Shown piece after piece: positions 689 to 20,078 of a stretch of 64,000 nt of DNA (position 1 is the stretch's first letter; every line of letters begins with the position of its first letter). Both the position numbers and the translations under genes were made by a program. The stretch comes from an uncultured Planctomycetia bacterium (GTDB lineage Bacteria > Planctomycetota > Planctomycetia > Pirellulales > PALSA-1355): NCBI GenBank assembly GCA_963801675.1, contig CAWDFN010000001.1, positions 4,439,427 to 4,503,426 on the forward strand. The letters run 5' to 3'. Under the pieces are notes generated by a model. That model saw only the letters and a program-made list of their open reading frames with translations. It ran no database searches and was not told the origin of the DNA.

Positions 689-691
689 TCA

Positions 692-736
692 TCGTACATT
701 CGCCGCCGGTCGTACCGGCCGCGGGCCGCGTAGGCC
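692..736 (+). repeat. Cruciform repeat, right arm only
   Basis: TCGTACATTCGCC-GCCGGT-CGT-ACCGGC-CGCGGGCCGCGTAGGC, nearly identical to the right arm at 2305-2348. Confidence 0.85.
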
Positions 737-807
737 AGTTTTTCTGAAAGGAGGAACCGACAGGAGTTTTTCTTACCCGTTTGGTAACCATTTTTCGAGG
801 ACCAACC

Positions 808-2255
808 ATGAACGCCTTTGCCATTGCCCTGATGATCGCCGTCGCGATCGTCGCCGGCGAGCCCAGCCAGGCCGCCGAACCTTTGAAAGCCGCTGCGTCT
901 TTGAAAGCGACGGGGCCCACGCGCGACGCGATCGCGCTGGCCACGATCGTCAACGACGACACCGATACCGACTGGTCCGAGTTCCGCGTGCTTTCCTTTG
1001 CCAACCTCGACCCGGTGCGCAAGCCGCGCGTGAAAGGGGACGTCAAGTTCATCGTCGAGACGCTGAACCGTCGCACCGAGCGGGCCGAGATCCGCGAGCT
1101 CTCCGACAGCCTGTGGGCCGTCAACGTCAAGCAGCTCAAGTGGCGCGGCCGCCACTGGGAGGATCTGGCCAAAAAATGGCCCTACCACGACGCGGTGCCC
1201 GAGCGGGCGCGCAAGTACCTGGCTGCGAAGTTCGAGACGAAGCATCCGATCCTGCGAGCCGACGTGTTCGCCCAACAGGCCTGGCAACCCGAATGGTACG
1301 CCAAGCTTTTGGATTTGCCGACGACGCGCGACAAGCTGCTCGACCAGGTGGGGCTCGACGCCGACTGGCCGAAGCAGATCCAAGCGATGGGGATCGTGCC
1401 CGAGTCGGGCGTGCAGGACAACCCGCGCAAGGTCGCGTATCTGCAGGGCCGCAGCGTCGCTGGAAAGCAGCGGGGCATCCCGCTCGATTTCTTCGTGACG
1501 ATGAACTACGAGGACCTCCGCGGCAAGAACGACAGCCTGCGCCATCCCACGCAGGTCGACTGCAACTACAACGAGATCGCGATCGAGGCGCCCAACGGCC
1601 TCGACTTTTACTTCGCCAACGCCGGCGGCGGCGGGATCGCCGAGCGCGATCGCATCACCGACGAGCTCGTCGATCGAGTGGGCAATGGCGACTCCCGGAT
1701 GGGCGGGCTGGTCAAGCAGATCCCGCTGCGCGCCGGCGCGACCACGTGCACGACGGCCAGATCCTGCTGGGCATGAGCTGCGTCGGCTGCCACGCCGGCG
1801 GGGCCCAGGATCTCTCTGAGAAGCTGGCCCAGGTGTCGCTGTTGCGTTTCGACGACGCGAAGATGACGCCCAAGCGCATCGGCGAGGTGTTCGATAACGA
1901 ACTGCTCGCCCGCCGCGCCCGCCGGGCCGGCTTGCGCTGGACGCGATCGCTGCGCGCGATCAACGGCCGCGCGCCCGACGAGAACCAGGCCTCGTGGCAG
2001 GCCACGCAGGCCGAGTTCGCCGCCGACGTCGACCTGGCCAAGGCCGCCGCCGAGCTGGGCGCGACCGAGGCCGCGTTGACCGCGTCGATCGAACGATGGC
2101 TCGCGAGCAATCGCGATCCGCTGGTGACCGCGATTGTCGAGCGCCCGATCACGCGCGAGCAGTTCGAGCAGATTTTCCCGACCCTTCGCCAAATGTGGCA
2201 GGGCCAAGACGAGACCGCCGTGGCCCGCGTGTTCGCGGGCCGGGGAATTCAATAG
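808..2255 (+). CDS. Secreted c-type heme-binding (CxxCH) protein, split by one frameshift near 1740
   Basis: ATG 808 after GAGG, with signal peptide MNAFAIALMIAVAIVAG. ORF 781..1776 continues in the frame of ORF 1113..2255 (DHVHDGQILLGMSCVGCHAGG). CxxCH at 1779-1793. Confidence 0.65.
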
Positions 2256-2257
2256 GA

Positions 2258-2348
2258 GCCTCCGGCGGCGGCCGAGCCGGCCGGGGCGATATACGAGGAA
2301 GTCTTCGTACATTCGCCGCCGGTCGTACCGGCCGCGGGCCGCGCAGGC
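2258..2348 (+). repeat. Cruciform repeat, full copy
   Basis: GCCTCCGGCGG-[CGGCCG AGC CGGCCG]-GGGCGATATACGAGGA..TCTTCGTACATTCGCC-[GCCGGT CGT ACCGGC]-..GCCGCGCAGGC. Confidence 0.9.
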
Positions 2349-2365
2349 CAGGTCGTGAACTGATT

Positions 2366-2591
2366 TTGAAAACAACCCACTTGGCCCACCCGAAGGGAGA
2401 CGCCGTCGTCAACGAAACGCAGTCGCGCTGAAACTGGATGCGTAGAAGTTGGGCTCGGTAGTGTTGCCGATCGCTATGCGAGTTGGCCTACGAGGCAAGG
2501 CGTCCTGACCAACACGTGCACGCCGCTCTGCAAAAGTGCCCAGCGAGACGAACGACCTTTCAGCGGGGTCGGCCAAGTGAGTTGTTTTCAA
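2366..2591 (+). ncRNA. Candidate large structured RNA / 5' leader (or MITE) upstream of parB
   Basis: 21-bp terminal inverted repeat with 20/21 pairs (2366-2386 / 2571-2591) enclosing many nested short helices and a GACGCC/GGCGTC pseudoknot candidate. Confidence 0.55.
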
Positions 2592-2614
2592 TCAAAACCC
2601 CCAGGAGAAAACCC

Positions 2615-4525
2615 GTGATCACTGCCAAAGCACCGAAGCGACCGAAAAGTGAAAAGGCCCTGGCCGACGACGCCAGGCGAAAGCCCGTCGTCAAAAACGA
2701 GACGGCGCGGCGCATGATCGCCGAGCATTCCCGCGAGAATGAACTTGCAGCGATGGGTCTGCTCGGAACCTCGACGCCGGCAGGCATCGCAGCCAATGGC
2801 CAGGCCGAGGCGAACAGCGGACCACCGGTAGCGTTCGGAAAACTGAATGGTGCGAAAAAAGAAAAACCCTCCGGGGGCGGCCGAGCCGGCCGTGGCGGTA
2901 TACGAGGAAATGCTGATCCATCTGCCCTCGTAGATTCGCCGGCGGCCGTGCCGCCCGCCGGCCGCGCAGGCCAGTCTGCTTCGTCCGCCGTCGTCAGCCG
3001 CGAGGCGAGTGTCTCGATCCATCAGATCGTCGTGTCGAAGAAAAACCCGCGCAGCGACTTTGACGAAGCCTACATCGACGAACTGGCCGCGAGCATCCAG
3101 GAGCACGGCCTGCTGCAATCGCTGGTGGTGCGGGCGCTGCCCGAAAAAGCGCACCACTACGAGCTGATCGCCGGCGAGTGCCGGCTGCGCGCGTGCAAAA
3201 AAGCCGGACGCCACGCCGTGGAAGTGAAGGTGCTCGACGTCGACGAGCGGACGGCGGACAAATTGCGCGTGATCGAGAACCTGCACCGCCGGAACCTGAA
3301 CGCGATCGAGGAGGCCCGCGGGTTTCAAAGCCTGTGCGCGGAGCACGGCTACACGCACGACGCGCTGGCCGCCGAGCTGGGCTGCTCGCAGGGTCACGTG
3401 ACCAGTCGGATCGGGCTTTTGAAGCTGCCGAAGGCCTGGCAGGACCGGATCATTACGCGCGAATTGCCGCCCACCCACGGCCGCGCGATCATCAAGTACG
3501 CCGCGTATCCCGAGATTTTGAAGCAGATCGAAAAGGACTGGTGCGAAGAAGGCTCGGAGCCGCCCGCCATCGACTATCGGACGTGGGAGCAGCAGGTCGA
3601 GACGGCCGCGGAGATCGCGACGAAGCAGATGTCCGGCCGATCGCACGTGCGGAAGAACAAGACCAGCCACGAGCACCTGTCGGGCAACGTGCCCAACTTC
3701 AACGAAGCCCAGCGCGCCGGGCTCAAGGTGATCAAGATTGGCAGCGGCAAGCAGGCCCACGAGCGGGCCGCCAACGTCGCGCTGTGGGAGCAGCTCTGCC
3801 GCGCCGCCTGGGAAAAGCAGGAAGCCAAAGCCGGCGCCAAGCGCGAGAAGGAGGCGGGCAAAGCCAAGGCCAAGGAGAAGACGCCCGCCGAGCGGTGCGC
3901 GTCGCAGGCCAAGCTCGACAAGGCCCTGCGCGAATGGATCGAGAACTGGCGCACCGACTGGCTGCGCCGCATCCTGAGCGCCCTCGTGCTGGAGGATCGC
4001 ACGCTGGCCGGCCGCGCGGTGCTGATGGGGCTGGCCTACGGCAGCGAGCGCTTCGTCGCCAATTGCGACGAGCGCGTCGAGGAGCTGATCGAGCCCTGGA
4101 CCAAAGGCCTCAGACAAGAGCAGGCCGTGGCCGCGGTCGAGCCCGACAACGTAATCGAGGTCCTCGCCCAAGTTGCCAGCGAGTGGGTGTGGAACGATTT
4201 GCAGGCCGAGAAGGAGCCCGGCAGTTGGCACGGCCGCGCGCTCCACGAGGACGCGATCGAGGCCCTGGCCGAATCCGCCAAGATCGACCTGGCCGAATTC
4301 TGGGCAGTCTCGGCCGACGACGAGGCGCCGTATGCCGAGCAGCTCTTCAATCGCCACACCACCGCCGACCTGGTCGCGTTGTGCGAGGAGCTGAAAGTCA
4401 AAACCGGCGCCACCAAAAAGACCGAGCTGGTCGCCGCCCTCGTCGAGTCAGAGGCCACGTGGAAACGCCTGCCCAAAGCGATCAAGCCGGTGGCAATCAC
4501 GACGAAGACGAAGCGGAAGAAGTGA
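2615..4525 (+). CDS. ParB/RepB/Spo0J-family protein with long C-terminal extension
   Basis: NPRSDFDEAYIDELAASIQEHGLLQSLVVR...YELIAGECRLRA...IENLHRRNLNAIEEA, then HTH (THDALAAELGCSQGHVTSRIGLLKLP). GTG 2615 follows AGGAGA. Confidence 0.9.
   Translation: MITAKAPKRPKSEKALADDARRKPVVKNETARRMIAEHSRENELAAMGLLGTSTPAGIAANGQAEANSGPPVAFGKLNGAKKEKPSGGGRAGRGGIRGNADPSALVDSPAAVPPAGRAGQSASSAVVSREASVSIHQIVVSKKNPRSDFDEAYIDELAASIQEHGLLQSLVVRALPEKAHHYELIAGECRLRACKKAGRHAVEVKVLDVDERTADKLRVIENLHRRNLNAIEEARGFQSLCAEHGYTHDALAAELGCSQGHVTSRIGLLKLPKAWQDRIITRELPPTHGRAIIKYAAYPEILKQIEKDWCEEGSEPPAIDYRTWEQQVETAAEIATKQMSGRSHVRKNKTSHEHLSGNVPNFNEAQRAGLKVIKIGSGKQAHERAANVALWEQLCRAAWEKQEAKAGAKREKEAGKAKAKEKTPAERCASQAKLDKALREWIENWRTDWLRRILSALVLEDRTLAGRAVLMGLAYGSERFVANCDERVEELIEPWTKGLRQEQAVAAVEPDNVIEVLAQVASEWVWNDLQAEKEPGSWHGRALHEDAIEALAESAKIDLAEFWAVSADDEAPYAEQLFNRHTTADLVALCEELKVKTGATKKTELVAALVESEATWKRLPKAIKPVAITTKTKRKK
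2867..2971 (+). repeat. Cruciform repeat, full copy, in-frame within parB
   Basis: Same architecture; right hairpin GGCGGC CGT GCCGCC. Confidence 0.85.
3451..3466. promoter_or_regulatory. parS-like palindrome copy 1 (CATTACGCGCGAATTG), inside parB
   Basis: One mismatch to the CATTWCGCGCGWAATG consensus shared with 6525, 13383 and 20094. Confidence 0.55.
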
Positions 4526-4561
4526 GCCACAGAGGGCACCGAGGTACGAGAGGACGCGACG

Positions 4562-4702
4562 ATGAAATACCAACTCGAACTTGGCGAGGAGGATCGACAG
4601 CTGATGCTGCTCGCGCTTGCGAAATTGAAACACGAGCGCCCGGGCTGGGACGATGCGATCGAAAGAATTGAAGAGCGGTTGGCGCCGCCGGCGGAACGCT
4701 GA
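4562..4702 (+). CDS. Small hypothetical protein (46 aa, MKYQLELGEEDRQLMLLALAKLKHERPGWDD...)
   Basis: ATG 4562 after GAGAGG, protein-like sequence, TGA at 4700-4702. Below the ORF-track cutoff. Confidence 0.55.
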   Translation: MKYQLELGEEDRQLMLLALAKLKHERPGWDDAIERIEERLAPPAER

Positions 4703-5742
4703 TCGCGGGCAGCAACGCCGCGACGACGTTTGCAGCCGGGCTGGTGATCAACAATTCGACGACCAACGGTACGGGTCTGACGATCACGGGCAATGGGTCA
4801 GCGTCGGCGATCTCGGCAATCGGCGGCAGCACGGGCAACGGCATCACCGTCTCGGGTGGCGCGACGAGCGGGCATGGCATCCAGTTCACGGGCACGGGTA
4901 CCGGCAAGGATGCGATCAATGCGACGGGTGGCAACAGCGGCGGACATGGCCTGTCCCTCACGGGCGGCAATTCGGGTTCGGCCCTGTTCGCCGCCGGCGG
5001 CTCGAATTCCAACGGGATCGAATGTTTTGGCGACGGCGTGTCGGACGGCTTCGCCGCCACCGGCGGCGCGACGGGGCGCGGCATTCACGCGCTGGGGGGC
5101 ATCACGTCCGGCGCCGGCGCTCGCTTCGAAGCACGCGCCGGCAATAGTCCGGGGTTTCATGCAGTCGGATTTCTGGCGGGCTGCGGGATGTTGCTCGACG
5201 CCGGCGCCACGGGGGATGGCTTCAAAGCAGCCACGACCGCCGGGGTGCCGTTCCGCGCGGACATCACGGGCAATCTGACCGGAACCGTGCTGGCGTTGGA
5301 TTCGGCCGAGCGGACGGCGATCGCCGACGCGGTCGAAACTGCCATCGTCAACGGTACGGACACGGCGGCGGTCAACGCCGCCATCGCCTCGGCCGTGTGG
5401 AAGGACGCCACCGCGGGCGACTTCACGATCGCCTCTTCGATGGGCAAGAAACTCAGCGACTGGTCGCCGACCGCCGACACCTCGGGGGTGACCACGCTGC
5501 TGGGCCGCATCCCGGGCGCGATCACGCTCTCAGGCGGCAAGGTGCAGCTCGACCTGACCCAGGCCGTGCCGACCAGCAACACCGCGCAGACCGTGGGCGA
5601 CGCGCTGAACGCGGCGCGCGCCCAGGGATTCGGCAAGTGGGTCATCAGCGGAACCGCGTTGACGCTGTACGCCGCCGACGGCTCGACCGTGGTCAAGACT
5701 TTCACCCTCAACTCGGCCACCGCGCCGACGAGCCGGCAATGA
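4672..5742 (+). CDS. Gly/Thr/Ala-rich virion structural (fiber-like) protein, probably 5'-truncated
   Basis: Repeated G-x-G-I/L-x-x-x-G-G beta-solenoid-like units. The frame is open from 4672 (AVGAAGGTLIAGSNAATTFA) with no good start or RBS. Confidence 0.6.
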   Translation, partial: RAVGAAGGTLIAGSNAATTFAAGLVINNSTTNGTGLTITGNGSASAISAIGGSTGNGITVSGGATSGHGIQFTGTGTGKDAINATGGNSGGHGLSLTGGNSGSALFAAGGSNSNGIECFGDGVSDGFAATGGATGRGIHALGGITSGAGARFEARAGNSPGFHAVGFLAGCGMLLDAGATGDGFKAATTAGVPFRADITGNLTGTVLALDSAERTAIADAVETAIVNGTDTAAVNAAIASAVWKDATAGDFTIASSMGKKLSDWSPTADTSGVTTLLGRIPGAITLSGGKVQLDLTQAVPTSNTAQTVGDALNAARAQGFGKWVISGTALTLYAADGSTVVKTFTLNSATAPTSRQ

Positions 5743-5909
5743 CCCCCATACCTACACCCAATCCCATCACCCAGGGCCTGGGCGTCGGGCCGACGATCAT
5801 CACGCAGGGCTTCGGCGCCAGCGCTGCGCCGCGAGCGGTCTTCCAACTGGTCTTTTACATCCGGCCCGAGGTTGACCTGGTCTTCTACGTATTGCAGAGC
5901 TCGACCTGA
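5739..5909 (+). CDS. Small phage protein (MTPIPTPNPITQGLGVGPTIITQGFG...)
   Basis: ATGA overlap with the upstream stop; internal ITQG repeat. Confidence 0.55.
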   Translation: MTPIPTPNPITQGLGVGPTIITQGFGASAAPRAVFQLVFYIRPEVDLVFYVLQSST

Positions 5910-5929
5910 CGCTCGAAGGTTAAACGCGC

Positions 5930-6256
5930 ATGACCAACGGACACATCCACGTAGGCGACATTGGGACGCTGCTGACGTGTTTCTTCCGCAAGGCTGACGA
6001 GAGTGCATTCGACATCTCGGCAGCCACCACGAAGGAGATCAGCTTTGAGAAACCGGATGGAACCAGTTTCCACCGCGCGGGAACGTTTCTTGTCGACGGG
6101 GTCGATGGCGTGCTGACGTATGGCCTGGCGGCCGACGACATCGACGTCGAAGGCTATTGGTGGTTGCAGGGGCACGTGGTCTTTGGCGACGGGACCGATC
6201 TGCGCAGCGATCGGGTGCGCGTGAGAATCCGAAAAAACAACGCGCCGGAAAGTTGA
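5930..6256 (+). CDS. BppU-N-like phage structural protein
   Basis: IHVGDIGT...FDISAAT...FEKPDGT...GVLTY...DIDVEGYWWLQGHV pattern resembles baseplate-upper N-terminal-like domains. Confidence 0.55.
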   Translation: MTNGHIHVGDIGTLLTCFFRKADESAFDISAATTKEISFEKPDGTSFHRAGTFLVDGVDGVLTYGLAADDIDVEGYWWLQGHVVFGDGTDLRSDRVRVRIRKNNAPES

Positions 6257-6401
6257 AAGAGAGCGGGTGACCGCGGAGCTGCAAACTCCGCGGCCACCCT
6301 GAGCACGACGACGTGACTGAGACGCCGCCATACCTACGAAACCCTAGGTTGGCAGCATGGCACCGAGAGACCGCAACGAAGACCCGATGCATTTTCGCCG
6401 C

Positions 6402-6450
6402 GGGTCCTTCCTAGCAGCCTTTTAGCCTTCGGCCCCTACGGGAACCGCCG
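6402..6450 (+). promoter_or_regulatory. Putative cos/packaging region (cosQ-like GGGTCCT)
   Basis: GGGTCCT at 6402-6408 is identical to lambda cosQ. It is followed by CTACGGG, in the intergenic gap just before the small terminase. Confidence 0.45.
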
Positions 6451-6486
6451 ATATTTACCACACAGTTACGTACGGCGTCCTCAGTG

Positions 6487-7025
6487 ATGGCCAAGAAGAA
6501 AACCCGCGGCAAAAAGCCGCGCGTCATTACGCGCGAAATGACGCCGCCGGAACTGCCCGAGGACGTGGTCGAGTTGGTCGTCGGGCTGCTGGTCAACTAT
6601 CGCAGCGTGCAAGTCGTGCGGCGCGAATGCCGCGAGCACGAGGAGCTCGGGTTGACCGACGAACAGACGGACGTCGCGATCGCCGAGGCCTCTCGGCGGA
6701 TCCGCCTGGCCGCGGCCGTCGACTTCGACCAGGAGCTCGGCAAAGCAAAAACGCGGCTCGAAGATTTGTTCGAGAAGGCCGACGTCAAGACTGCGCTGGC
6801 CATCCAAAAGGAAATCAACAAGCTGCTCGCGCTCTATCCGAAGAGCGGCGCGGCGCCGGGCCGGAAGCGCCGGACGATTCGGACGCGCTGGAGGAGCTGG
6901 CGGCGACCCGGGCCCACCTGGTGCCATTACTCGGCGCCGGCCCAGAAGAACTTGCGGACGACCCGCTCGACGAGATCGCCCGCCGCGTCGTGGCCCGATT
7001 CACCGCCCAGAGTACCCGTCGCTGA
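6487..7025 (+). CDS. Putative terminase small subunit (frameshift near 6860)
   Basis: Directly precedes TerL. The N-part (frame of 6484) joins the frame of 6627..7025 (PEAPDDSDALEEL...), whose TGA overlaps the TerL ATG. Confidence 0.6.
6525..6540. promoter_or_regulatory. parS-like palindrome copy 2 (CATTACGCGCGAAATG)
   Basis: Extends to a near-perfect 24-bp palindrome GCGTCATTACGCGCGAAATGACGC (6521-6544). Confidence 0.65.
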
Positions 7026-9100: not shown

Positions 9101-9120
9101 ACCAACAGGAGCGCCCCATC

Positions 9121-9366: not shown

Positions 9367-9455
9367 AAAATAATAATGAGAATCTCACTATTACTTGCCA
9401 AATCTTCGCGCGCCGCGCTAGGGGTCGGCCGGATCGTCGCGTAGGTTGAAAGCGT

Positions 9456-12328: not shown

Positions 12329-12333
12329 GAAGA

Positions 12334-12386
12334 GCCTCCGGCGGCACGCGAGCCGCGTGGGGCAGTATACGAGGAGCCGCATAGGC
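12334..12386 (+). repeat. Cruciform repeat, internally deleted copy
   Basis: Left arm with CACGCG AGC CGCGTG joined directly to the terminal GCCGCATAGGC. Confidence 0.85.
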
Positions 12387-12457
12387 CAGTTTTTGTAAAC
12401 CACTTCCCGCCAACACACTCACCTCTCCAAACGAAAATCGAACGAGGAACCTGAGCA

Positions 12458-13375: not shown

Positions 13376-13382
13376 GCCGCGT

Positions 13383-13398
13383 CATTTCGCGCGAAATG
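13383..13398. promoter_or_regulatory. parS-like palindrome copy 3 (CATTTCGCGCGAAATG, perfect)
   Basis: Perfect 18-bp palindrome TCATTTCGCGCGAAATGA, intergenic just after the capsid stop. Confidence 0.65.
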
Positions 13399-13417
13399 AG
13401 CAAACGAAAACCCAAGA

Positions 13418-13508
13418 GCCTCCGGCGGCACGCGAGCCGCGTGGGGCGAGATACGAGGAGTCCTTTGTACACCCGCCACCGGTCGCACCGGTCGCCCGCC
13501 GCGTAGGC
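13418..13508 (+). repeat. Cruciform repeat, full copy
   Basis: CACGCG AGC CGCGTG and ACCGGT CGC ACCGGT hairpins. Confidence 0.9.
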
Positions 13509-13548
13509 GCGTTCTTCTCAAGCCAGTCACTTTCCAAAGGTACCGACC

Positions 13549-13956: not shown

Positions 13957-13991
13957 TCGCCGGCGCGTCCTGACCACTGACCACTACGCCC

Positions 13992-14351
13992 ATGTCCCTG
14001 TTCAGCAACCAGCTCGCCGCCGGCCTCGCGCAAATCCGCGCGGTGGCCGGCGACGCCTGGGCCTACCAGTGCCCAGCCGGCACGATCCCGACCCTCAACG
14101 CCACGCAAGGAAAGACCCAGTACGAAGCGATCGACGAATCGGGGCTGACGGTCCCGGCCACGGCAACCGACTTCCTGGTGGCCGCGGCTGACCTGGTGAT
14201 CAACAGCCAGGCCGTGCACCCGGCCCCTGGCGATCGCCTGTCCCGCGGCGGCCGCGTGTTCGAAGTCATGCCGCTGGGCAATGAGAAGTGCTTTGTGTTC
14301 AGCGACCCCGACGGCAGCCAACTGCGGATCCACACCAAGCAAATCGCCTGA
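13992..14351 (+). CDS. Head-tail joining protein
   Basis: Position; DFLV..DL...PAPGDRL...FEV...LRIHTK motifs. Confidence 0.7.
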   Translation: MSLFSNQLAAGLAQIRAVAGDAWAYQCPAGTIPTLNATQGKTQYEAIDESGLTVPATATDFLVAAADLVINSQAVHPAPGDRLSRGGRVFEVMPLGNEKCFVFSDPDGSQLRIHTKQIA

Positions 14352-14821
14352 TGCCCACGAAAATAGACAACCCGGCCCGCCTGACGCAGATCGCCGACCA
14401 GATCGTCGACGTGCTCAACGAGGGGGAATTCAGCCAGGACTTCGAGGCCAAGCGCTACTTCAGCCCGCGCTTGGCACTCGACGAACTGGCCGCCGACGGC
14501 TTGCGCGTGGCCGTGTTCAAGGCGGGTATTCGCCGAACCAACCTGACCCGCACCAGCAAACAATTCGAATTCGACGTCAACGTGAGCGTGCTGGCCAAGC
14601 TGAACCCCGAGAAAGACGAAGACGAGCTCGGCGACGAATGCCTGGCCCTGGCCGAGGAACTGGCCGAGGTGGTTGAAAACACGCCGCTGGCGCGCCTCAC
14701 CGACGGCAGCCGACCGATCCAAACCGACACCCACATTCGCGCGTCCTATTCGCCCGAACACTTCGTGCAAGAACGCGTCGTGCTGTGCGACGCGGTCTTC
14801 TCCTACCGGATTTTGGGGTAA
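14351..14821 (+). CDS. Tail terminator-like protein
   Basis: TGATG overlap with the upstream gene; size and position in the neck cluster. Confidence 0.55.
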   Translation: MPTKIDNPARLTQIADQIVDVLNEGEFSQDFEAKRYFSPRLALDELAADGLRVAVFKAGIRRTNLTRTSKQFEFDVNVSVLAKLNPEKDEDELGDECLALAEELAEVVENTPLARLTDGSRPIQTDTHIRASYSPEHFVQERVVLCDAVFSYRILG

Positions 14822-14832
14822 GCAGCTAAGCA

Positions 14833-15324
14833 ATGTTCGGCCTGGCCTACAACGCAACCGATTCCTTCTTCGATCGCCCCAAGGTGATGGAGGCCTGCAA
14901 AACGGCCGGCCGTCAGAACCTGGGCCGCGCAGGCGCGCACGTGCGCACCGCCGCCCGCGATCTGCTGCGCAAGAGCGGCGCGAAGCGTGGCCGGCCCGTG
15001 AAAGGCCAGCCGCGCAAACGAGACTCGGCCAAACCGGGCGAGCCGCCGCGCAAGCACGAAGGCGGCCTGCGCGACGGCGTGTGGTTCGCCTACGACTTCG
15101 CGCACGACAGCGTCGTGGCCGGACCCGTGCGCTACAACGGCGACCAGGGCGCCGTGCCGGGGCTGCTCGAACACGGCGGCACGATCACGCGCACCATCAA
15201 AGTTCGCGGCCACCGCTTCCGCAAGACGCTGCGGTACCACAAGTTTCCCTACATGGGCCCGGCGCTGGAGCGCGTCGCCCCAACGTTTCCCAATCTGTGG
15301 GCCAACACCGTCCGCGACCACTGA
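14833..15324 (+). CDS. Neck/tail-completion (HK97 gp10-like) protein
   Basis: SAKPGEPPRKHEGGLR, LLEHGG and PYMGPAL motifs. Confidence 0.7.
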   Translation: MFGLAYNATDSFFDRPKVMEACKTAGRQNLGRAGAHVRTAARDLLRKSGAKRGRPVKGQPRKRDSAKPGEPPRKHEGGLRDGVWFAYDFAHDSVVAGPVRYNGDQGAVPGLLEHGGTITRTIKVRGHRFRKTLRYHKFPYMGPALERVAPTFPNLWANTVRDH

Positions 15325-15350
15325 CCACCACCAACCGAACGAGATGAACC

Positions 15351-15794
15351 ATGGCCGACAAAAAGCTACTCGGCGGCGAGTGCAAACTCTACCGCAACTC
15401 GGGCACCTACGGCTCGCCCACGTGGAACGAAATCACCAACGTCGAAGATCTGTCGATGCCCAACTCGAAGGGCCGCGGCGAATTCAAGGTGCGCGGCAGC
15501 AAGTACGTCAAAAAGCGCGGCGCCAAGATCGAGGCCGCGCTCAACTGGAAGCAGATCTACGACCCGGGCGACGACGATTTCACCGTCCTGCTGGGCAGCA
15601 TGAACAGCGGCACCATTCTCGACCTGGCCTGCGTCGACGGGGCCATCGCCACCAGCGGCACCCAGGGCCTGCGCGCCGACATGGAAGTGATGGAATTTCC
15701 GCTCGACGAGCCGCTGGAAAGCGGCGTCTCGATCGCCGTCGTCGCCGAAGTGGCCATCAGCGCCAACGAACCGACCTGGATGACCGTCGCCTAG
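15351..15794 (+). CDS. Tail tube protein
   Basis: LGGECKLYRNSG...PTWNEITNVEDL; size and position. Confidence 0.75.
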   Translation: MADKKLLGGECKLYRNSGTYGSPTWNEITNVEDLSMPNSKGRGEFKVRGSKYVKKRGAKIEAALNWKQIYDPGDDDFTVLLGSMNSGTILDLACVDGAIATSGTQGLRADMEVMEFPLDEPLESGVSIAVVAEVAISANEPTWMTVA

Positions 15795-15825
15795 ACCGCG
15801 AGCCGCGGTGGGCGATGTACGAAGA
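15795..15825 (+). repeat. Cruciform repeat, left-arm remnant
   Basis: ACCGCG AGC CGCGGT GGGCGATGTACGAAGA. Confidence 0.75.
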
Positions 15826-15861
15826 AGACTGACCACTAACCACTGACCACTGGACACAACC

Positions 15862-16212
15862 ATGCTCACCCAAGATCAGCTCGCCGCCCTGCGGGCCCGG
15901 GCCGCCACGCGCGTCGCCGGCTTGCACACGCCCAAGCAGCTCGAGCACGCCTACCTGGAAGTCACGCCGGCCGAGATCATCGCCGTCTGCGACCAGGCCC
16001 GGCCGGCCAGCGACGACCAGGCCACGCTGCTCGCCGCGCAGCAAAAGGTCGCCGAGCTGCGGTTCGGCTCCGCCAACGCCGGCGCCCAGGCCGAGTTCGT
16101 TTACGTCCGCGCCAGCGACGTGCTGTTCGTTTGCGACCAGGTGCCATCGCCGACGCTGACGAGTGCGGCCGCACCGGACGCCGCCCACGCCGCCAGCGAT
16201 CACGACGAGTAG
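15862..16212 (+). CDS. Hypothetical phage protein
   Basis: Co-oriented ORF with GC3-rich codons and an internal VCDQ repeat. Confidence 0.6.
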   Translation: MLTQDQLAALRARAATRVAGLHTPKQLEHAYLEVTPAEIIAVCDQARPASDDQATLLAAQQKVAELRFGSANAGAQAEFVYVRASDVLFVCDQVPSPTLTSAAAPDAAHAASDHDE

Positions 16213-16229
16213 CAAACGACAAAAAAGAT

Positions 16230-16328
16230 GCCTCCGGCGGCCCGGTAGGACCGGGTGCCCGTTAAAAACGCTCCGCGTTTTTCCTCGTAAATCGCCCGTG
16301 GCGGCTCGCCACCGCCGGCCGCGCAGGC
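16230..16328 (+). repeat. Cruciform repeat, variant full copy
   Basis: CCCGGT AGG ACCGGG and GTGGCG GCT CGCCAC hairpins, same termini. Confidence 0.85.
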
Positions 16329-16357
16329 CAATAAGACAGGCCAGTAAGAGTTGAAAA

Positions 16358-16851
16358 ATGGCTTCCAAGATCAACGACGACCTGTCGTGCAACCGGTTGA
16401 CGCCCAAGTCGTTTGACCCGCCGTCGGGATGTATTACGGACGACGCGATCCCGTCGAGGCGCAAATCCAGGCCACGAAGGTTCAGCACCAGCAGCGGGGC
16501 TCGTACGCGCAAGCCAGCGCCACGACGACGACGGCCGCCACGATCCCCATCTTTACCGCCCGCTTCGCCGGGACGCTGATCGACTTCGTGGCCGGCGTGG
16601 TGGGCGTGCTCACGGGCAACGCCACGACCACCGTCGACCTGAAGAAAAACGGCACGACGGTCCTGTCGTCGACGATCGTGCTGGACAACGCGAACACGGC
16701 CCGCGTGGTGGAGGCCGCCACGCTCAACCCGGCCGCGGTCGCCTACGTCGCCGGCGACGTGTTCGAGCTGGTGATGACCGTCAACGCCGGCAGCGGCGCC
16801 CTCGGCACCGGCTTCTTCTGCGAAGCCCGTTTCAACGAAAAGAGCCAATAA
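16358..16851 (+). CDS. Phage structural protein (frameshift near 16450)
   Basis: MASKINDDL...GCITDDAI joins EAQIQATKVQHQ...TVDLKKNGTTVLSS in the next frame. Confidence 0.55.
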
Positions 16852-16856
16852 GAACT

Positions 16857-16951
16857 GCCCTGCGCGGCCGGCGGCCGGTACGACCGGCGGCGAATATTAC
16901 AAAGACTTCCTCTTATACCGCCCCACGCGGCTCGCGTGCCGTCGGAGACTC
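16857..16951 (-). repeat. Cruciform repeat, full copy in inverted orientation
   Basis: Reverse complement reads GTCTCCGACGG-CACGCG AGC CGCGTG-GGGCGGTATAAGAGGAAGTCTTTGTAATATTCGCC-GCCGGT CGT ACCGGC-CGCCGGCCGCGCAGGG. Confidence 0.9.
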
Positions 16952-16988
16952 TTCACTCCCAAACCCCCAACCGAAACGCTCCCAATCC

Positions 16989-17495
16989 ATGGCCCACAAA
17001 TTCACCGACGCGACCGGCACCGACTGGCTGGTGGCGGTCAACGTCACCACGATCAAGCGCGTGCGCGACTTGCTCAAAGACGACGACGGCACGCCGGTCA
17101 ACCTGCTGGCGGTCGTCGAGAAGAAGGGCACGTTGATGAAGCAGCTGGCGACCGATCCCGTGCTGCTGGTCAACGTGGTGTACGTGCTGTGCCAGAGGCA
17201 ATGCCAGGAGCGGAACATCAGCGACGAGCAGTTCGGCGAGCTGATGGCCGGCGACGTGATCGAGAGCGCTACGGTCGCGCTGCTGGAGGACCTCCGCGAT
17301 TTTTTCCCGAAAGGCCAACGCGAACTGATCGGCACCGCGCTGGCCAAGCTGAAAAAGTTCGAGGCCCTGGCACTGGAAAGAGCGCGCGAGCGCGTCGACT
17401 CGCCCGAATTCGACGCCGCCATCGAGCGAAGGATTACCGAGGCGTTCGCGGAGTTGAACGGCTCATTTACGAGCTCGCCGGCGTCGCCGGGGTAG
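16989..17495 (+). CDS. Tail assembly chaperone (G-like)
   Basis: MAHKFTDATGTDWLVAVNV...LRDFFP; located between tail tube and tape measure. Confidence 0.75.
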   Translation: MAHKFTDATGTDWLVAVNVTTIKRVRDLLKDDDGTPVNLLAVVEKKGTLMKQLATDPVLLVNVVYVLCQRQCQERNISDEQFGELMAGDVIESATVALLEDLRDFFPKGQRELIGTALAKLKKFEALALERARERVDSPEFDAAIERRITEAFAELNGSFTSSPASPG

Positions 17496-17731
17496 ATCCC
17501 GGTCCGCACACGCTCCGCGAGCTGCTGTGGATGGCCGACGGCGTACGGCGCGACGAGTGGCAGCGCACGAGCCTGCTGGCCGCGCTCATCCACAACCAGT
17601 GGCGGAAGAAACATCAGATGCGCGATCCGCGCCACTTCAACCCCTTCGAGACCAGCGGCCGAGGCCACGGGCGGCTCACACCGCGCACCATTCACCGGCT
17701 CAAAGCGTTCCTGCCCGACCACGGCGGGTAG
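17450..17731 (+). CDS. Tail assembly chaperone T-like segment (-1 frame, overlapping G)
   Basis: ERLIYELAGVAGVDPGPHTLRELLWMADG... in the -1 frame, overlapping the 3' end of the chaperone. Confidence 0.6.
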   Translation, partial: GVERLIYELAGVAGVDPGPHTLRELLWMADGVRRDEWQRTSLLAALIHNQWRKKHQMRDPRHFNPFETSGRGHGRLTPRTIHRLKAFLPDHGG

Positions 17732-17753
17732 CACCCGCGGGCGATGTACGAAG
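17724..17753 (+). repeat. Cruciform repeat, left-arm remnant overlapping a stop codon
   Basis: GCGGGT AGC ACCCGC GGGCGATGTACGAAG. Confidence 0.75.
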
Positions 17754-17804
17754 TTCTGTCCTGATCACTGACCACTAACCACTGACCACCAACGACTGCT
17801 TCCC

Positions 17805-19925
17805 ATGGGTCTCGGTTCCCAAATCCGCGCCGGCGCAGCCTACGTCGAGATCACAACGCGCAACGGCGCCCTGGTCAAAGGCCTGAAGAGCGCGCAGAAG
17901 TCGATCAGCGGCTGGGGCACGAGCGTCCGCTCGGCCGGCCTGAAGGTGGCAGGCGCCGGCGTGGCGGCCGTGACGGGCTTTCTGGGCTTTGCCAAGACGT
18001 TTGCCGACGCCGGCAGCGAACTGGTCGATATGAGCCAGCGGACTGGTATGTCGGTCGAAGCGCTCAGCGAGCTGGGTTACGCAGCCGATCAGAGCGGCGC
18101 CGACATGGAGACGTTGGAAGGCGGCGTCAAGAAGATGCAGAAGGCGATCGGCGACGTCGCCGGCGGGAACAAAGACACCGAGCGCAGCTTCGACATGCTC
18201 GGCATCAGCATGGAGGACCTGAAGGGCAAAACGCCCGACGAACAACTGACCATGTTCGGCGAGGCCCTGTCGAAGATCCAAGATCCGCTCGTCAAGAACA
18301 ACCTGGCAATGGACGTCTTCGGGAAGACCGGCACCAAGCTGCTGCCCATGTTCGAGGGGGGCGCCGCGGGCATGGCCGCCCTGCGCGAGGAGGCCAAGCG
18401 TTTGGGGCTGGCCTGGGACACCGACACCGCCAAGTCGGCCGAGGCATTTGGCGACGCGATCAGCACCGTCTGGAAGTTGATCAAAATGGTGTCGATCAGC
18501 ATCGGCGGCGCGCTGCTGCCCGATATGAAGCAGCTCGCCGCCACCGTCACCGAGGTCACCAGCAACACGATCGCGTGGATTAAGGAAAACCAAGATTTCA
18601 TCCGCCTGGTGTTTCGCATCGCGATTGGCGTCGCCGCCGCGGGCGCCGCGCTACTCGCGCTGGGCTGGGTATTGACCACGATCGGCGCCGCGTTGGCGAC
18701 CGGCGTCACGATCGCGGGCCTGTTCGGCACGGCCGTCAGCGTGCTGGGCGGCCTGCTGGCGTTTGTCCTTTCGCCGATTGGCCTGATCACGACGGCCCTG
18801 ATCGCGGGCGCCGCCATCTGGGCCCTTTACACCCAATCGGGCCAGGCGGCAGTCGGCGGTTTGACCAGTTTGTTTGGAGATCTGCTGTCGACGTTCACGC
18901 AAACGTTCGGGGGCATTAAAGACGCACTCCTGGCCGGCGACCTGGCCCTGGCTGGCACGATCGCGGTCGCCGGCCTGCGCGTGGCACTGCTGCAAGGCGT
19001 GGCGGCGCTATCGGAGGCCGTGGGCGGATCGTTCGGCGACTTCCTCGGCACGATCGGCACCCAGATCGCCGGCGGCGACTTGGCGGGCGCCTGGAGCACG
19101 GTAGTCACCGGCATGGCCAACCTGTGGGCCGGCTTCGCCGAGGGACTGGTGGCCGTGTTCACGGTCGCGGCTCGCGCGATCATTGATATGTGGCAGGGCA
19201 TCGAGAACAAGCTCACGAAATTTTTTCTGAAGTACGGCAACAAACGCTTGCTCGGCGTCGACATGAAGGCCGAGCAGGCCCGAGCCGAGAAGGCCCGCCA
19301 GTCGGGCATCGACGTCACGCAGCGCGAGATCGCCACGGCGAAGGAGGACCTGGCGAAGGCCCAGGCCAACGGCGGCTCGTTCGTCGACCAGAACGGGCAA
19401 ACCGCCACGACCCAAGAGCTCGAACGGTTCCTGACCGGTTTGGAAGCCCGGCTGGCCCAGTTGCAGGACGAGAAGCCCGACGTCAAAGGCGACGCGACGA
19501 AGACGGCCGAAGCCATCACCGCGGCCACGGCCGACGCGCTGCGCGGCAAGCTCGACAACCTCGACGCAGCCGCCCAGGAGCGGACGCGTGCCGCCGGCGA
19601 GAACTTTCGCAACCGGACCCGCGGCGGCGCGGACGGCGCCAATGACGCACTGGCCAAGGCGCAGGAAGAGCTCGACGCGGCGGTCGAGGCGGCAAAAGCC
19701 GCGCGTGACGCGGCCACCGAAGACCGTGCCAAGAATGCGCAGAACGGCGCGCCCGATCCCAACGAGCTCGACAAGCTGGCCAAGGACAAGATCGACGTCT
19801 CGGGCACCTTCAACGCCGCGGTCGTCGGCGGCCTGGGCGGCGGCGACGTGCAGGCGGAAATCGCCGCCAATACCAAGGCCACCGCCACCAACACCAAGAA
19901 AAACAACAAGCCCGTGCACAGCTAG
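17805..19925 (+). CDS. Tail tape measure protein (706 aa)
   Basis: IRAGAAYVEI N-terminus, DMSQRTGMSVEALSELGYAA, FGKTGTKLLPM, hydrophobic mid-region. Confidence 0.9.
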   Translation: MGLGSQIRAGAAYVEITTRNGALVKGLKSAQKSISGWGTSVRSAGLKVAGAGVAAVTGFLGFAKTFADAGSELVDMSQRTGMSVEALSELGYAADQSGADMETLEGGVKKMQKAIGDVAGGNKDTERSFDMLGISMEDLKGKTPDEQLTMFGEALSKIQDPLVKNNLAMDVFGKTGTKLLPMFEGGAAGMAALREEAKRLGLAWDTDTAKSAEAFGDAISTVWKLIKMVSISIGGALLPDMKQLAATVTEVTSNTIAWIKENQDFIRLVFRIAIGVAAAGAALLALGWVLTTIGAALATGVTIAGLFGTAVSVLGGLLAFVLSPIGLITTALIAGAAIWALYTQSGQAAVGGLTSLFGDLLSTFTQTFGGIKDALLAGDLALAGTIAVAGLRVALLQGVAALSEAVGGSFGDFLGTIGTQIAGGDLAGAWSTVVTGMANLWAGFAEGLVAVFTVAARAIIDMWQGIENKLTKFFLKYGNKRLLGVDMKAEQARAEKARQSGIDVTQREIATAKEDLAKAQANGGSFVDQNGQTATTQELERFLTGLEARLAQLQDEKPDVKGDATKTAEAITAATADALRGKLDNLDAAAQERTRAAGENFRNRTRGGADGANDALAKAQEELDAAVEAAKAARDAATEDRAKNAQNGAPDPNELDKLAKDKIDVSGTFNAAVVGGLGGGDVQAEIAANTKATATNTKKNNKPVHS

Positions 19926-19930
19926 TCGAA

Positions 19931-20078
19931 GCCGCCGGCGGCCGGCAAGGTGCCGGTGCCAGTAGACGCAGCAAGCGCGCCAAACTGCGGCGCGCAGCAA
20001 CAACCGCACTCACCCAACGCACGATGTTCCACTGACGTATTTCGCCAGCCGGGGCTCCCGGCAGCCCGCCGCGTAGGC
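19931..20078 (+). repeat. Cruciform repeat, long-spacer variant
   Basis: CCGGCA AGG TGCCGG and GCCGGG GCT CCCGGC hairpins; terminal GCCGCGTAGGC. Confidence 0.8.

What the first reader, a model, noticed from the sequence alone, without database searches (positions are those of the whole stretch)
692..20078. Family of ~10 cruciform elements with co-varying 6-bp/3-nt hairpins punctuating the prophage
Seen: copies at 692, 2258, 2867, 12334, 13418, 15795, 16230, 16857 (inverted), 17724 and 19931. The full form is GCCTCCGGCGG-[hairpin]-GGCG..TACGA-spacer-TCGTA..CGCC-[hairpin]-..GCCGCGYAGGC, which folds as a four-way junction. Every hairpin is exactly 6 bp with a 3-nt loop, but stem sequences swap with full compensation. 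Left stems: CGGCCG, CACGCG, ACCGCG, CCCGGT, GCGGGT, CCGGCA (loops AGC/AGG). Right stems: GCCGGT, GGCGGC, ACCGGT, GTGGCG, GCCGGG (loops CGT/CGC/GCT). Most copies sit just after stop codons, and none was seen in the host part. Inference: structure rather than sequence is selected. The two arms are inverted versions of one unit, as in REP doublets (REPINs) mobilised by HUH transposases. Alternatives are RNA processing/stability elements that tune late-gene stoichiometry, or recombination sites for gene shuffling. I do not recognise it as a named family.
Basis: partly seen in the sequence, partly recalled or inferred. Interest (0 to 1): 0.85.

Follow-up and report, generated by a model that had tools for sequence, protein, structure and literature searches.

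The report
Host palindromic repeats crowding a prophage
The ten "cruciform" elements are real, but they belong to a small REP/MITE-like palindromic repeat family of the host genus that has piled up in one prophage, which is a known kind of phenomenon.

Summary
All ten named copies exist at the stated coordinates. Every unit carries a perfect 6-bp/3-nt hairpin whose stem sequence varies with full compensation: 229 of 229 cells paired, no G-U, 0 of 500 shuffles as good.

Only the two small hairpins covary. The outer and inner stems of the proposed four-way junction are an imperfect inverted repeat with no compensatory changes.

The family is not prophage-specific.
- Of 43 good units in the 7.9-Mb genome, 19 lie in 23 kb of the prophage, at 12 loci.
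- The other 24 lie at 16 chromosomal loci beside housekeeping genes.
- Five of nine same-genus genomes, none of which shows this phage's capsid gene, carry 1-9 units.
- One site downstream of hisS is occupied in five species.
- Two other chromosomal loci carry the element here but are empty in the congeners compared.
- Thirteen related prophage loci lack the element.

There is no Rfam match. The two RAYT-like genes are flanked by a different palindrome.

Best reading: an orphan REP/BIME-like mobile repeat that probably acts as an intercistronic terminator or RNA stabiliser. It is enriched about 230-fold in this prophage. This is a new member of a known kind, of moderate interest.

The parts
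692..736 (+). Copy J: solo right arm (TCGTACATTCGCC, hairpin GCCGGT-CGT-ACCGGC, outer strand ending GCGTAGGCC), followed by CAGTTTTTC. It starts 3 nt after the stop (686-688) of the 537-aa replication-initiator-like gene.
2258..2349 (+). Copy A: full doublet, 92 nt. Left stem CGGCCG (loop AGC), right stem GCCGGT (loop CGT). It starts 2 nt after the stop at 2253-2255.
2867..2972 (+). Copy B: full doublet, 106 nt. Left stem CGGCCG, right stem GGCGGC. It lies in a stretch with no coding signal upstream of the ParB-like gene, whose codon-position-3 GC bias (GC3) begins at about 2978.
12334..12387 (+). Copy C: left arm (stem CACGCG) joined directly to a vestigial right end (CCGCATAGGCC), followed by AGTTTTTG. 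It starts 5 nt after the stop of the 399-aa gene that precedes the major capsid gene.
13418..13509 (+). Copy D: full doublet, 92 nt. Left stem CACGCG, right stem ACCGGT (loop CGC). It starts 42 nt after the stop of the major capsid gene. It is the only copy whose minimum-energy fold is the four-way junction.
15795..15827 (+). Copy E: solo left arm without the outer strand. The hairpin ACCGCG-AGC-CGCGGT begins at the base after the stop codon (15792-15794). It is followed by the motif CTGACCACTAACCACTGACCAC.
16230..16329 (+). Copy F: full doublet, 100 nt. Left stem CCCGGT (loop AGG), right stem GTGGCG (loop GCT), with a divergent inner part. It starts 17 nt after the stop at 16210-16212.
16857..16949 (-). 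Copy G: full doublet in inverted orientation, 93 nt. Left stem CACGCG and right stem GCCGGT when read on the minus strand. It starts 5 nt after the stop at 16849-16851. It is the only one of the 12 prophage loci that lies antisense to the genes.
17724..17753 (+). Copy H: solo left arm. The hairpin GCGGGT-AGC-ACCCGC overlaps the stop codon TAG at 17729-17731. It is followed by the same CTGACCACTAACCACTGACCAC motif, upstream of the tape-measure gene.
19931..20079 (+). Copy I: long-spacer doublet, 149 nt. Left stem CCGGCA (loop AGG), right stem GCCGGG (loop GCT). It starts 5 nt after the tape-measure stop. Its ends match the long chromosomal subfamily at C1:1050502, 1522674 and C3:27446.

Best explanation
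The elements are copies of a low-copy, genus-restricted family of REP/BIME-like palindromic repeats, meaning a non-autonomous, MITE-like element.

Anatomy. The basic unit is about 45 nt:
- a conserved outer strand (GCCTCCGGCGG, or its longer variant GCCTGCGCGGCCGGCGG);
- a 6-bp/3-nt hairpin in which only the pairing is conserved;
- a conserved inner strand (GGGCGATATACGAGGA).
Two units joined head to head across a variable spacer make the doublet. The doublet is framed by an A-rich 5' flank and a T-rich 3' flank.

Shown:
- The family is chromosomal and older than this prophage's residence.
- It is present or absent at orthologous sites among congeners.
- It has accumulated in this one prophage at about 230 times the chromosomal density. 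There it lies almost always in the sense orientation and directly after stop codons.

Inferred:
- Copies spread when an enzyme acting in trans recognises the short hairpin plus its flanks in single-stranded DNA. An HUH-type enzyme is the leading candidate, but none is linked to this family here.
- Once inserted, the GC-rich palindrome with its T-rich tail acts on the transcript as an intercistronic terminator, attenuator or barrier to 3' exonucleases. This would set the relative amounts of scaffold-position, capsid, tail and tape-measure messages.
- That use could explain why copies are kept in every larger gap of the late operon.
For: Family and covariation:
- 43 units genome-wide with 17 different stems, all perfectly paired.
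- Hairpin helices are 100% paired, with 11 of 12 pairs changed on both sides in 13 doublets.

Enrichment: 19 of 43 units lie in C1:4436529-4459502, which is 23 kb of 7.94 Mb.

Host origin:
- The 24 other units flank MORN, Asn synthase, Usp, DJ-1, DUF1501, ABC transporter, ThuA, UxuA, UbiA, S41 peptidase and LplA genes.
- No paralogue of the phage proteins lies near them.
- Congeners carry 1-9 units in 5 of 9 genomes, after chromosomal parB, hisS, metG, ilvD and similar genes.
- 0 of 9 congeners have this phage's capsid gene.
- The site downstream of hisS is occupied in G000, G001, G004, G006 and G007, with compensated stem differences.

Mobility:
- At the UbiA locus the intergenic gap is 208 nt here, against 53-62 nt in the 7 congeners where both flanks aligned around it. 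There is no model hit in the 8 orthologous loci fetched.
- At the LplA/HEAT locus the gap is 120-225 nt longer than in 8 of 9 congeners, again with no convincing hit there.
- Solo and truncated arms exist.
- The element is absent from 13 loci of related prophages with 32-54% capsid identity.

Terminator-like frame: the 12 nt upstream of 14 doublets are 55% A, and the 12 nt downstream are 44% T. The genome is 19% each.

Orientation and position:
- 11 of 12 prophage loci are sense to the genes.
- 9 of 10 window copies begin 0-42 nt after a stop.

Precedent:
- REP dimers with differing stems, lying downstream of genes, and orphan REP families without a transposase (PMC3733652, passages read).
- Genus-specific MITEs shared by hosts and their viruses, at 0.18 per kb in viral sequences and up to 30 in one phage (PMC11602168, abstract and sections 40 and 45 read).
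Against: - No mobilising enzyme was found.
  - None of the three Y1 genes has a unit nearby, and the RAYT-like ones have their own palindrome.
  - The gene bracketed by a left and a right arm looks like a replication initiator and not a transposase.
- No target-site duplication was seen. No exact empty site could be defined, because the congeners are only about 75-80% identical.
- Copy number (about 50) is far below that of classical REP families.
- Prophage copies are diverse, with 7 stems unique to the prophage, so there was no recent burst.
- At least three other phage-like regions of the same genome carry no unit. The enrichment in this one prophage is therefore unexplained.
- The terminator role is untested.
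  - The simple terminator scan flags none of the elements.
  - Only A and B fold clearly better than shuffles.
  - Only about 4 of the 12 prophage loci are followed by a clean T run.
- The complete absence of G-U pairs argues that the constraint acts on DNA rather than on RNA.
Confidence: 0.6

Rival explanations
1. The elements are native functional RNA elements of the phage, such as processing sites, terminators read through by an antiterminator, or stability determinants. They would have evolved in the phage lineage. The chromosomal copies would then be secondary, left by past infections or copied from the phage.
For: - 19 of 43 units lie in the prophage.
- 11 of 12 loci are sense to transcription.
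- By my reading of the ORF list, every gap of 60 nt or more between genes from 11129 to 20127 (7 of 7) holds one.
- The copies hug stop codons and leave 28-74 nt before the next start.
- The prophage holds the greatest stem diversity: 11 stem types, 7 of them found nowhere else in the genome.
- G000, the only genome with the prophage, has 48 model hits against 0-9 in congeners.
Against: - Thirteen related prophage loci have no unit.
- Congeners without this phage's capsid gene carry units after housekeeping genes, including a hisS site shared by five species.
- There is no compensatory change in the outer or inner stems. Mismatches there are 16 G-U to 33 unpaired, which I estimate is about what neutral decay would give.
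- There are no G-U pairs in 229 hairpin cells.
- F, G and I fold no better than shuffles.
- There is no Rfam match.
Confidence: 0.17
2. The repeats have no function, and the covariation is a mutational by-product. Short palindromes would be kept perfect by intrastrand templated correction (hairpin-directed repair or template switching) or by gene conversion between copies. The prophage cluster would then be neutral accumulation.
For: - Pairing is strictly Watson-Crick with no wobble intermediates at all. Templated correction predicts this; RNA-level selection does not.
- The rest of the inverted repeat appears to decay neutrally.
- Stem types are shared between prophage and chromosome: CGGCCG, CACGCG, GCCGGT and CCGGCA.
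Against: - Neutral accumulation does not explain a roughly 230-fold enrichment in one prophage while other phage-like regions have none.
- It does not explain the 11 of 12 orientation bias.
- It does not explain why the flanks are more conserved than the stems.
Confidence: 0.1
3. The elements are attC-like or other single-strand recombination sites that let a tyrosine recombinase shuffle the genes between them.
For: - The palindromes conserve structure while varying in sequence, lie directly after stop codons and share one orientation.
- A tyrosine integrase gene lies 273 nt upstream of the first doublet.
Against: - The genes between the elements are terminase, portal, capsid and tape-measure in canonical order. 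Related prophages have a similar downstream neighbour after the capsid gene without the elements.
- By inspection, the conserved ends are GCCTCC...GCAGGC and not the integron R-box consensus as I recall it.
- The integrase matches only the general Phage_integrase family (27.9 bits) and no NCBIfam model.
- Units also stand alone after housekeeping genes.
Confidence: 0.03
4. The elements are binding sites or decoys for CsrA-type RNA-binding proteins. The conserved AUACGAGGAAGU at the tip of the central stem would be bound by the prophage's own CsrA-domain protein or by host paralogues.
For: - A CsrA-domain gene (98 aa, 38.7 bits) lies in the prophage, 7 nt upstream of a solo left arm.
- The genome has 14 CsrA-domain loci.
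- Six of the 12 prophage loci carry ACGAGGA on the sense strand.
- The motif resembles the published CsrA SELEX consensus. I recalled that consensus; the search listing shows only that the string is in print.
Against: - GGA is part of the inverted repeat and is partly paired in the predicted stem.
- Half of the prophage loci lack it.
- The perfectly conserved feature is the side hairpin, not the GGA.
Confidence: 0.05

Closest known systems
REP dimers, BIMEs and REPINs (Escherichia coli, Pseudomonas), with the REP super-families of Di Nocera et al. 2013 (PMC3733652)
   Same: - Short GC-rich stem-loop units lying outside genes.
- Mostly paired head to head across a variable linker.
- Mostly downstream of coding regions.
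- Restricted to a genus, with copy number differing between species.
- Heterodimers whose two units have different stems.
- Able to form a long hairpin or a cruciform.
   Different: - There is no GTAG or CGTC tag next to the stem.
- There are only about 50 units, not hundreds.
- The stem is only 6 bp and is the most variable part, while the flanks are conserved.
- The units do not flank the RAYT-like genes of this genome, which have their own palindrome.
- 44% of units sit in one prophage.
MITEs shared between prokaryotic hosts and their viruses (vMITEs, Nadal-Molero et al. 2024, PMC11602168), for example the many MITEs in a Neisseria meningitidis phage sequence
   Same: - A genus-specific small inverted-repeat element found both in the host chromosome and in its (pro)phage.
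- Higher density in viral sequence than in cellular sequence.
- Intergenic location.
   Different: - No target-site duplication or cognate transposase was seen here.
- Density (12 loci in 23 kb, about 0.5 per kb) is above the reported mean of 0.18 per kb.
- The copies here are diverged (75-80% between doublets), not near-identical.
Integron attC sites
   Same: - The structure is conserved while the sequence varies.
- They lie immediately after stop codons and in one orientation.
- They are presumably read in single-stranded form.
   Different: - There is no R/L box consensus and no integron integrase.
- The intervening genes are syntenic phage structural genes, not cassettes.
- Solo units occur after housekeeping genes.
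Repeated intergenic signals of phage genomes: T7 RNase III sites, and the stoperators and start-associated sequences of mycobacteriophages (recalled, not checked in a call)
   Same: A conserved motif repeated about ten times between genes of one phage, in one orientation relative to transcription.
   Different: Those signals are specific to the phage and conserved in sequence. This family is shared with the host chromosome, and its hairpin stems vary freely.
Bidirectional intrinsic terminators
   Same: A GC-rich palindrome framed by an A-rich tract upstream and a T-rich tract downstream.
   Different: - The structure is branched or very long, with a 3-nt to more than 100-nt centre.
- None of the elements passes the simple hairpin-plus-T-run scan.

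Membership tests
REP / REPIN-RAYT system | A short imperfect-palindrome unit repeated in extragenic space | tested here: met
   43 units, all intergenic by my ORF calls. Flanking genes were identified by Pfam.
REP / REPIN-RAYT system | Units organised as inverted doublets separated by a short spacer | tested here: met
   7 of 12 prophage loci and at least 7 of 16 chromosomal loci are doublets.
REP / REPIN-RAYT system | A conserved GTAG (or CGTC) tetranucleotide directly at one end of the hairpin | tested here: not met
   The bases next to the stem are CGG on the 5' side and GGGCG on the 3' side. A GTAG or GCAG occurs only about 12 nt away, in the outer strand of right arms. The definition is taken from PMC3733652.
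REP / REPIN-RAYT system | A RAYT gene flanked by the same REP units | tested here: not met
   There are three Y1_Tnp loci: one IS200-type and two RAYT-like, at 58.6 and 61.2 bits against a cut-off of 80. No unit was listed at any of the three Y1 loci. One RAYT-like gene is flanked on both sides by AAGGTGCCAGGAACCTT-type palindromes and the other has a related sequence upstream; that palindrome has 16 exact sites, several in inverted pairs.
REP / REPIN-RAYT system | High copy number (hundreds per genome) | tested here: not met
   43 good units, and 50 model hits at E<=1, in 7.94 Mb.
MITE | Terminal inverted repeats on an element of about 50-500 bp with no coding capacity | tested here: met
   Doublets are 91-170 nt, and the arms are inverted copies of one unit.
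MITE | Target-site duplication, and an autonomous element with the same ends | tested here: inconclusive
   No duplication is visible in the flanks of 14 doublets. Exact empty sites could not be defined. The only gene bracketed by a left and a right arm (P0001) resembles a replication initiator: Atlas leads to DnaA_N and HTH_36, PDB DnaA N-domain at E 0.012, and a winged-helix fold.
MITE | Presence or absence differing between related genomes | tested here: met
   The UbiA and LplA/HEAT loci are filled in G000 and have no hit in the 8 and 9 orthologous loci fetched from congeners. The hisS site is filled in 5 species and not recognisably filled in 4.
Integron attC site | R''/L''...L'/R' boxes with the conserved core, an integron integrase, and mobile cassettes | tested here: not met
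   The ends are GCCTCC...GCAGGC. The integrase matches only the general Phage_integrase family and no NCBIfam model. The genes between the sites are syntenic structural genes. The box consensus was recalled, not taken from a call.
Any Rfam family (ribozymes, processing sites, terminator-like RNAs) | A score at or near the family's gathering threshold | tested here: not met
   At gathering score the window gives only a tRNA at 37360. At E<=1 there is no match in 1-21000.
Canonical intrinsic terminator | A GC-rich stem with a 3-8-nt loop, followed within 2 nt by a T run | tested here: not met
   None of the 30 terminator-like sites in 1-20000 coincides with an element, and 24.1 such sites are expected by chance. 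T-rich tails do follow the elements on average.
Structured RNA with a four-way junction | Compensatory changes in all four helices | tested here: not met
   Only the two hairpins covary. Helices 1-3 have no pair changed on both sides and helices 5-6 have 2 of 12, and all five are 77-92% paired.

The most novel reading that the evidence does not exclude
The prophage is not a passive target. It would be the amplifier and vector of an orphan, hairpin-guided mobile element. An as yet unrecognised phage-encoded function, or phage replication intermediates, would drive copying of the units. The phage would also have put them to use as modular intercistronic RNA devices, possibly read by its own CsrA-like protein. 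This would explain three things: the one genome with the prophage has 48 hits against 0-9 in congeners, the prophage holds the greatest stem diversity, and other phage-like regions of the same genome have none.
Probability: 0.1. Interest if true: 0.7.

Novelty: new member of a known kind. Interest (0 to 1): 0.35.

Why it matters
The finding adds a REP/MITE-like family for a planctomycete-like genus. I infer that lineage from the DUF1501, DUF1570 and DUF1571 genes. My two literature searches on REPs in Planctomycetes and on REPINs in prophages turned up only the general survey PMC3733652.

It is also a clean example of a host repeat family concentrated in a temperate phage. That has two uses. 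The family could serve as a host-linking marker for viral contigs from this genus, in the sense of PMC11602168. The locus is also a compact natural test bed, with 12 variants of one element in one operon, for asking whether such palindromes set transcript boundaries.

The strictly Watson-Crick, hypervariable 6-bp hairpin between conserved flanks is a sharp recognition signature. It should make the unknown partner enzyme findable by biochemistry.

It does not open a new category. The ordinary explanation fits most of the data.

Tried and rejected
Autonomous parent element. A solo left arm, a 537-aa ORF (P0001) and solo right arm J together look like an element carrying its own gene.
- The ORF has no Pfam, PHROGs or NCBIfam match.
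- It has only 15 relatives among 1.84 billion representatives.
- Protein-atlas leads point to DnaA_N, HTH_36, DnaD_N and Phage_rep_O, at scores of 0.85-0.90.
- A profile of 10 relatives touches the DnaA N-domain in the PDB at E 0.012, and 2 of the 10 match Pfam DnaA_N.
- The model (pLDDT 64) shows a winged helix, and the fold matches are weak hits to winged-helix repressors and plasmid initiators, none at E<=0.001.
- I therefore rejected the idea as unlikely. It is not excluded.

Related prophages through the search for related loci. Searching with the capsid protein found nothing in genome contigs or viral contigs. The genome search over 301 genomes of the order did find 15 other genomes.

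Strict left-arm pattern in public collections: 0 hits in genome contigs, 0 in viral contigs, and 1 metagenome contig (L107, one zero-spacer doublet). A distant-mode blastn of copy A against 50,697 phage records gave no match. The window's own genome, and very near ones, may be left out of these collections.

Replication-linked orientation.
- Element orientation is minus for loci at 0.2-2.0 Mb (two exceptions), plus at 2.06-5.24 Mb, and minus at 5.76-6.40 Mb.
- It tracks local gene-strand bias and, loosely, a weak cumulative GC skew.
- Two dnaA-like genes give no clear origin.
- I could not separate a replication effect from a transcription effect, and I chose the boundaries after seeing the data. 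I draw no conclusion.

Sequencing runs: none was listed, and no RNA holder was listed.

The locus at C1:1050502 could not be used for an empty-site comparison, because its two flanking genes are not neighbours in the congeners.

An Rfam search of the repeat-rich loci next to the solo right arms gave only sub-threshold microRNA-precursor look-alikes.

Supplementary files of the two papers were not opened. Supplementary tables of PMC11602168 and the additional files of PMC3733652 might list planctomycete families that I could not check.

Full report
**1. The observation**

The window is G000:C1:4439427-4503426 of a 7.94-Mb, 62% GC genome in four contigs. Its first ~22 kb are the head-tail part of a siphovirus-like prophage. 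PHROGs identify these genes:
- a ParB-like gene (homology from ~2987 to 4525)
- large terminase (7025-9100)
- portal (9691-11160)
- major capsid (12458-13375)
- tape measure (17805-19925)

The integrase, a CsrA-domain gene and a 537-aa early gene lie just upstream of the window.

All ten named copies are there. A mechanical repeat scan, nhmmer and a covariance model each recover them independently. The same prophage holds two more loci upstream of the window. In total it has 7 doublets and 5 solo arms, which is 19 units in 22,974 nt.

**2. Structure**

Aligning the arms shows that the left and right arms are inverted copies of one unit. The right arm carries six extra bases in its outer strand.

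Across all 43 good units of the genome the hairpin is always 6 bp + 3 nt. There are 17 different stems. Loops are AGC (20), ACG (15), AGG (6), TGC (1) and GCG (1). Pair counts:
- 229 of 229 cells are paired.
- All six pairs change on both sides.
- There is no G-U pair.
- 0 of 500 shuffles reach the observed values.
- Slid registers pair at 22-58%.

The outer stem has no pair changed on both sides and the inner stem has 2 of 12, and these five helices are only 77-92% paired. Their non-Watson-Crick cells are 16 G-U to 33 unpaired. I estimate that this is about what unselected decay of an inverted repeat would give.

Single-sequence folds agree:
- The junction is the minimum-energy fold only for D.
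- A and B prefer one long hairpin (z -4.0 and -2.8).
- D has z -1.7.
- F, G and I are no better than shuffles.

What is conserved is therefore two short, strictly Watson-Crick hairpins between conserved flanks. A four-way junction is not shown.

**3. Distribution**

Within the genome:
- The model finds 50 hits at E<=1 in the genome and none in the host part of the window.
- 24 good units lie at 16 loci outside the prophage.
- Their neighbours are ordinary host genes.
- No relative of the phage's proteins lies near them.
- Other phage-like regions carry no unit. These are the portal and scaffold-position homologues at 4.52 Mb, a tape-measure homologue at 3.16 Mb and a terminase homologue at 6.96 Mb.

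Among relatives:
- Among 40 other related genomes, hits occur only in the same genus.
- A genus-only search gives G009 9 units and G001, G004, G006 and G007 one each. Four genomes have none, and G000 has 48.
- These congener units follow chromosomal parB, hisS, metG, ilvD, a NAD kinase gene and similar genes.
- None of the nine congeners has this phage's capsid gene.
- The unit downstream of hisS is shared by G000 (the doublet at C1:2366502-2366602), G001, G004, G006 and G007. It is not recognisable in G002, G005, G008 or G009.
- Between these orthologous copies the stem differs by compensated changes: GCCGCG/CGCGGC against GCCGGG/CCCGGC, and GTCGGT/ACCGAC in the right arm of G006.

Sites that differ between genomes:
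- At the UbiA locus the gap is 208 nt here, against 53-62 nt in the 7 congeners where both flanks aligned around it. The congeners have small simple hairpins there, and none of the 8 orthologous loci fetched has a model hit.
- At the LplA/HEAT locus the gap is 120-225 nt longer than in eight of nine congeners.

Related prophages and public collections:
- Related prophages in 15 other genomes of the order (capsid identity 32-54%) have short intergenic regions after the capsid gene. None of the 13 loci fetched has a model hit below E 0.1.
- Public collections add one metagenome contig with one doublet and nothing else.

**4. What it is**

The family is chromosomal and restricted to the genus. 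It is older than this prophage's residence, and it is gained or lost at individual sites. That is the behaviour of REP- or MITE-type repeats. The unit-and-doublet architecture is that of REP dimers, BIMEs and REPINs.

Di Nocera et al. (PMC3733652; passages read) describe:
- REP dimers whose partners differ in stem;
- families whose subsets differ in stem, loop or tail;
- a preference for sites downstream of genes;
- whole super-families without a dedicated transposase.

Nadal-Molero et al. (PMC11602168; abstract and sections 40 and 45 read) show that genus-specific MITEs are shared with the host's viruses. Density in viral sequences is higher than in cells, with up to 30 MITEs in one phage sequence.

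Against simple membership:
- There is no GTAG or CGTC tag at the stem.
- Copy number is low.
- The genome's two RAYT-like genes are associated with a different palindrome that has its own inverted pairs.

I therefore file this as an orphan REP/MITE-like family. It is not shown to be a REPIN.

**5. How it probably works**

Shown:
- The hairpin pairing is maintained through compensated change, both among paralogues and among orthologues.
- The doublets are framed by A-rich (55% A) and T-rich (44% T) flanks, against 19% each in the genome.
- In the prophage, 11 of 12 loci are sense to the genes.
- 9 of 10 window copies begin 0-42 nt after a stop and leave 28-74 nt before the next start.
- By my reading of the ORF list, each of the seven gaps of 60 nt or more between 11129 and 20127 contains one.

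Inferred:
- An enzyme acting in trans reads the hairpin and its flanks in single-stranded DNA to copy the unit. The total lack of G-U pairs points to DNA rather than RNA as the constrained form.
- The inserted palindrome then serves, or is at least tolerated, as a transcript-end or attenuator structure in the late operon.

The terminator role is not supported by the simple scan or by folding energies for most copies. It rests on the flanks, the position and analogy.

**6. What remains odd**

Forty-four per cent of the units sit in 0.3% of the genome, about 230 times the chromosomal density. They are diverse rather than recent, and the other phage-like regions have none. Neither neutral accumulation nor a host-wide enzyme explains this. 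The boldest reading not excluded is that the phage itself amplifies or exploits the family.

The one gene bracketed by a left and a right arm looks like a replication initiator and not a transposase.

A CsrA-domain gene next to a solo arm, and a GGA-containing conserved motif, suggest a further testable idea.

**7. Verdict**

- Observation: confirmed.
- Interpretation: partly supported. The architecture and the selection on structure hold. Prophage specificity, the RAYT link and the four-way junction do not.
- Novelty: a new member of a known kind.
- Interest: moderate to low (0.35).

Noticed in passing
window 15828-15850 and 17767-17789: The 22-mer CTGACCACTAACCACTGACCAC lies just 3' of solo arms E and H and 10-15 nt before the next ATG. 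One of those ATGs starts the tape-measure gene. The genome holds 4 exact copies of the 22-mer and 29 copies of the 12-mer ACCACTGACCAC. It may be a leader or translation signal.
   Followed up: partly
L060:8143-8439 (C1:4438143-4438439, 1 kb upstream of the window): The prophage encodes a 98-aa CsrA-domain protein (Pfam 38.7 bits). The genome has 14 CsrA-domain loci. The conserved AUACGAGGAAGU of the left arms resembles the CsrA SELEX consensus as I recall it. Nothing was tested.
   Followed up: partly
L060:8501-10114, continuing to window 688: A 537-aa early gene is bracketed by a solo left arm, which supplies a Shine-Dalgarno-like AGGAAGGA before its ATG, and by solo right arm J. Weak evidence points to a replication initiator, with winged-helix and DnaA_N-like parts. 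In relatives, the last ~80 residues (a zinc-ribbon-like CxxC...CxxC segment) are a separate small protein.
   Followed up: yes
C1:5240355-5240924 and at least 35 other places (for example L056, L050, L055, L046): A dispersed repeat of about 500-800 nt occurs in at least 35 copies at 78-96% identity. My crude filter found no ORF in the copy checked. An extended version carries a solo right arm of the element and a GTCAGGCC-AATG-GGCCTGAC palindrome at one edge. Rfam gave nothing meaningful.
   Followed up: partly
L018 (C1:1606305-1606988) and L019 (C1:6639107-6639814): Two RAYT-like genes fall below the NCBIfam cut-off. One is flanked on both sides by AAGGTGCCAGGAACCTT-type palindromes, which also occur as inverted pairs at several other loci. 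This is a separate, small REPIN-like family.
   Followed up: partly
window 781-2255; C1:2365114-2366441: ORFs 781-1776 and 1113-2255 overlap in different frames. The tblastn match to hisS is split into three pieces. Either these are frameshifted genes or the assembly has indel errors.
   Followed up: no
window ~42300-46000 and ~51750-55050: Two paralogous gene blocks are 76-82% identical over 63-112-nt stretches and lie about 9.06-9.43 kb apart (families D4, D7, D8, D11, D17). I did not annotate these blocks. DUF1501-family genes, typical of planctomycetes, were seen elsewhere in the genome.
   Followed up: no
C1:4521220-4523104 (about 18 kb beyond the window end): A second portal homologue and a homologue of the 399-aa gene that precedes the capsid gene (47-48% identity) mark another phage-like region. 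It carries no unit of the family.
   Followed up: partly
window 6265-6299, minus strand: A 16-bp perfect hairpin followed by a T-rich tail is the strongest terminator-like site in the scan. It lies between early-region ORFs and faces against the late genes.
   Followed up: no
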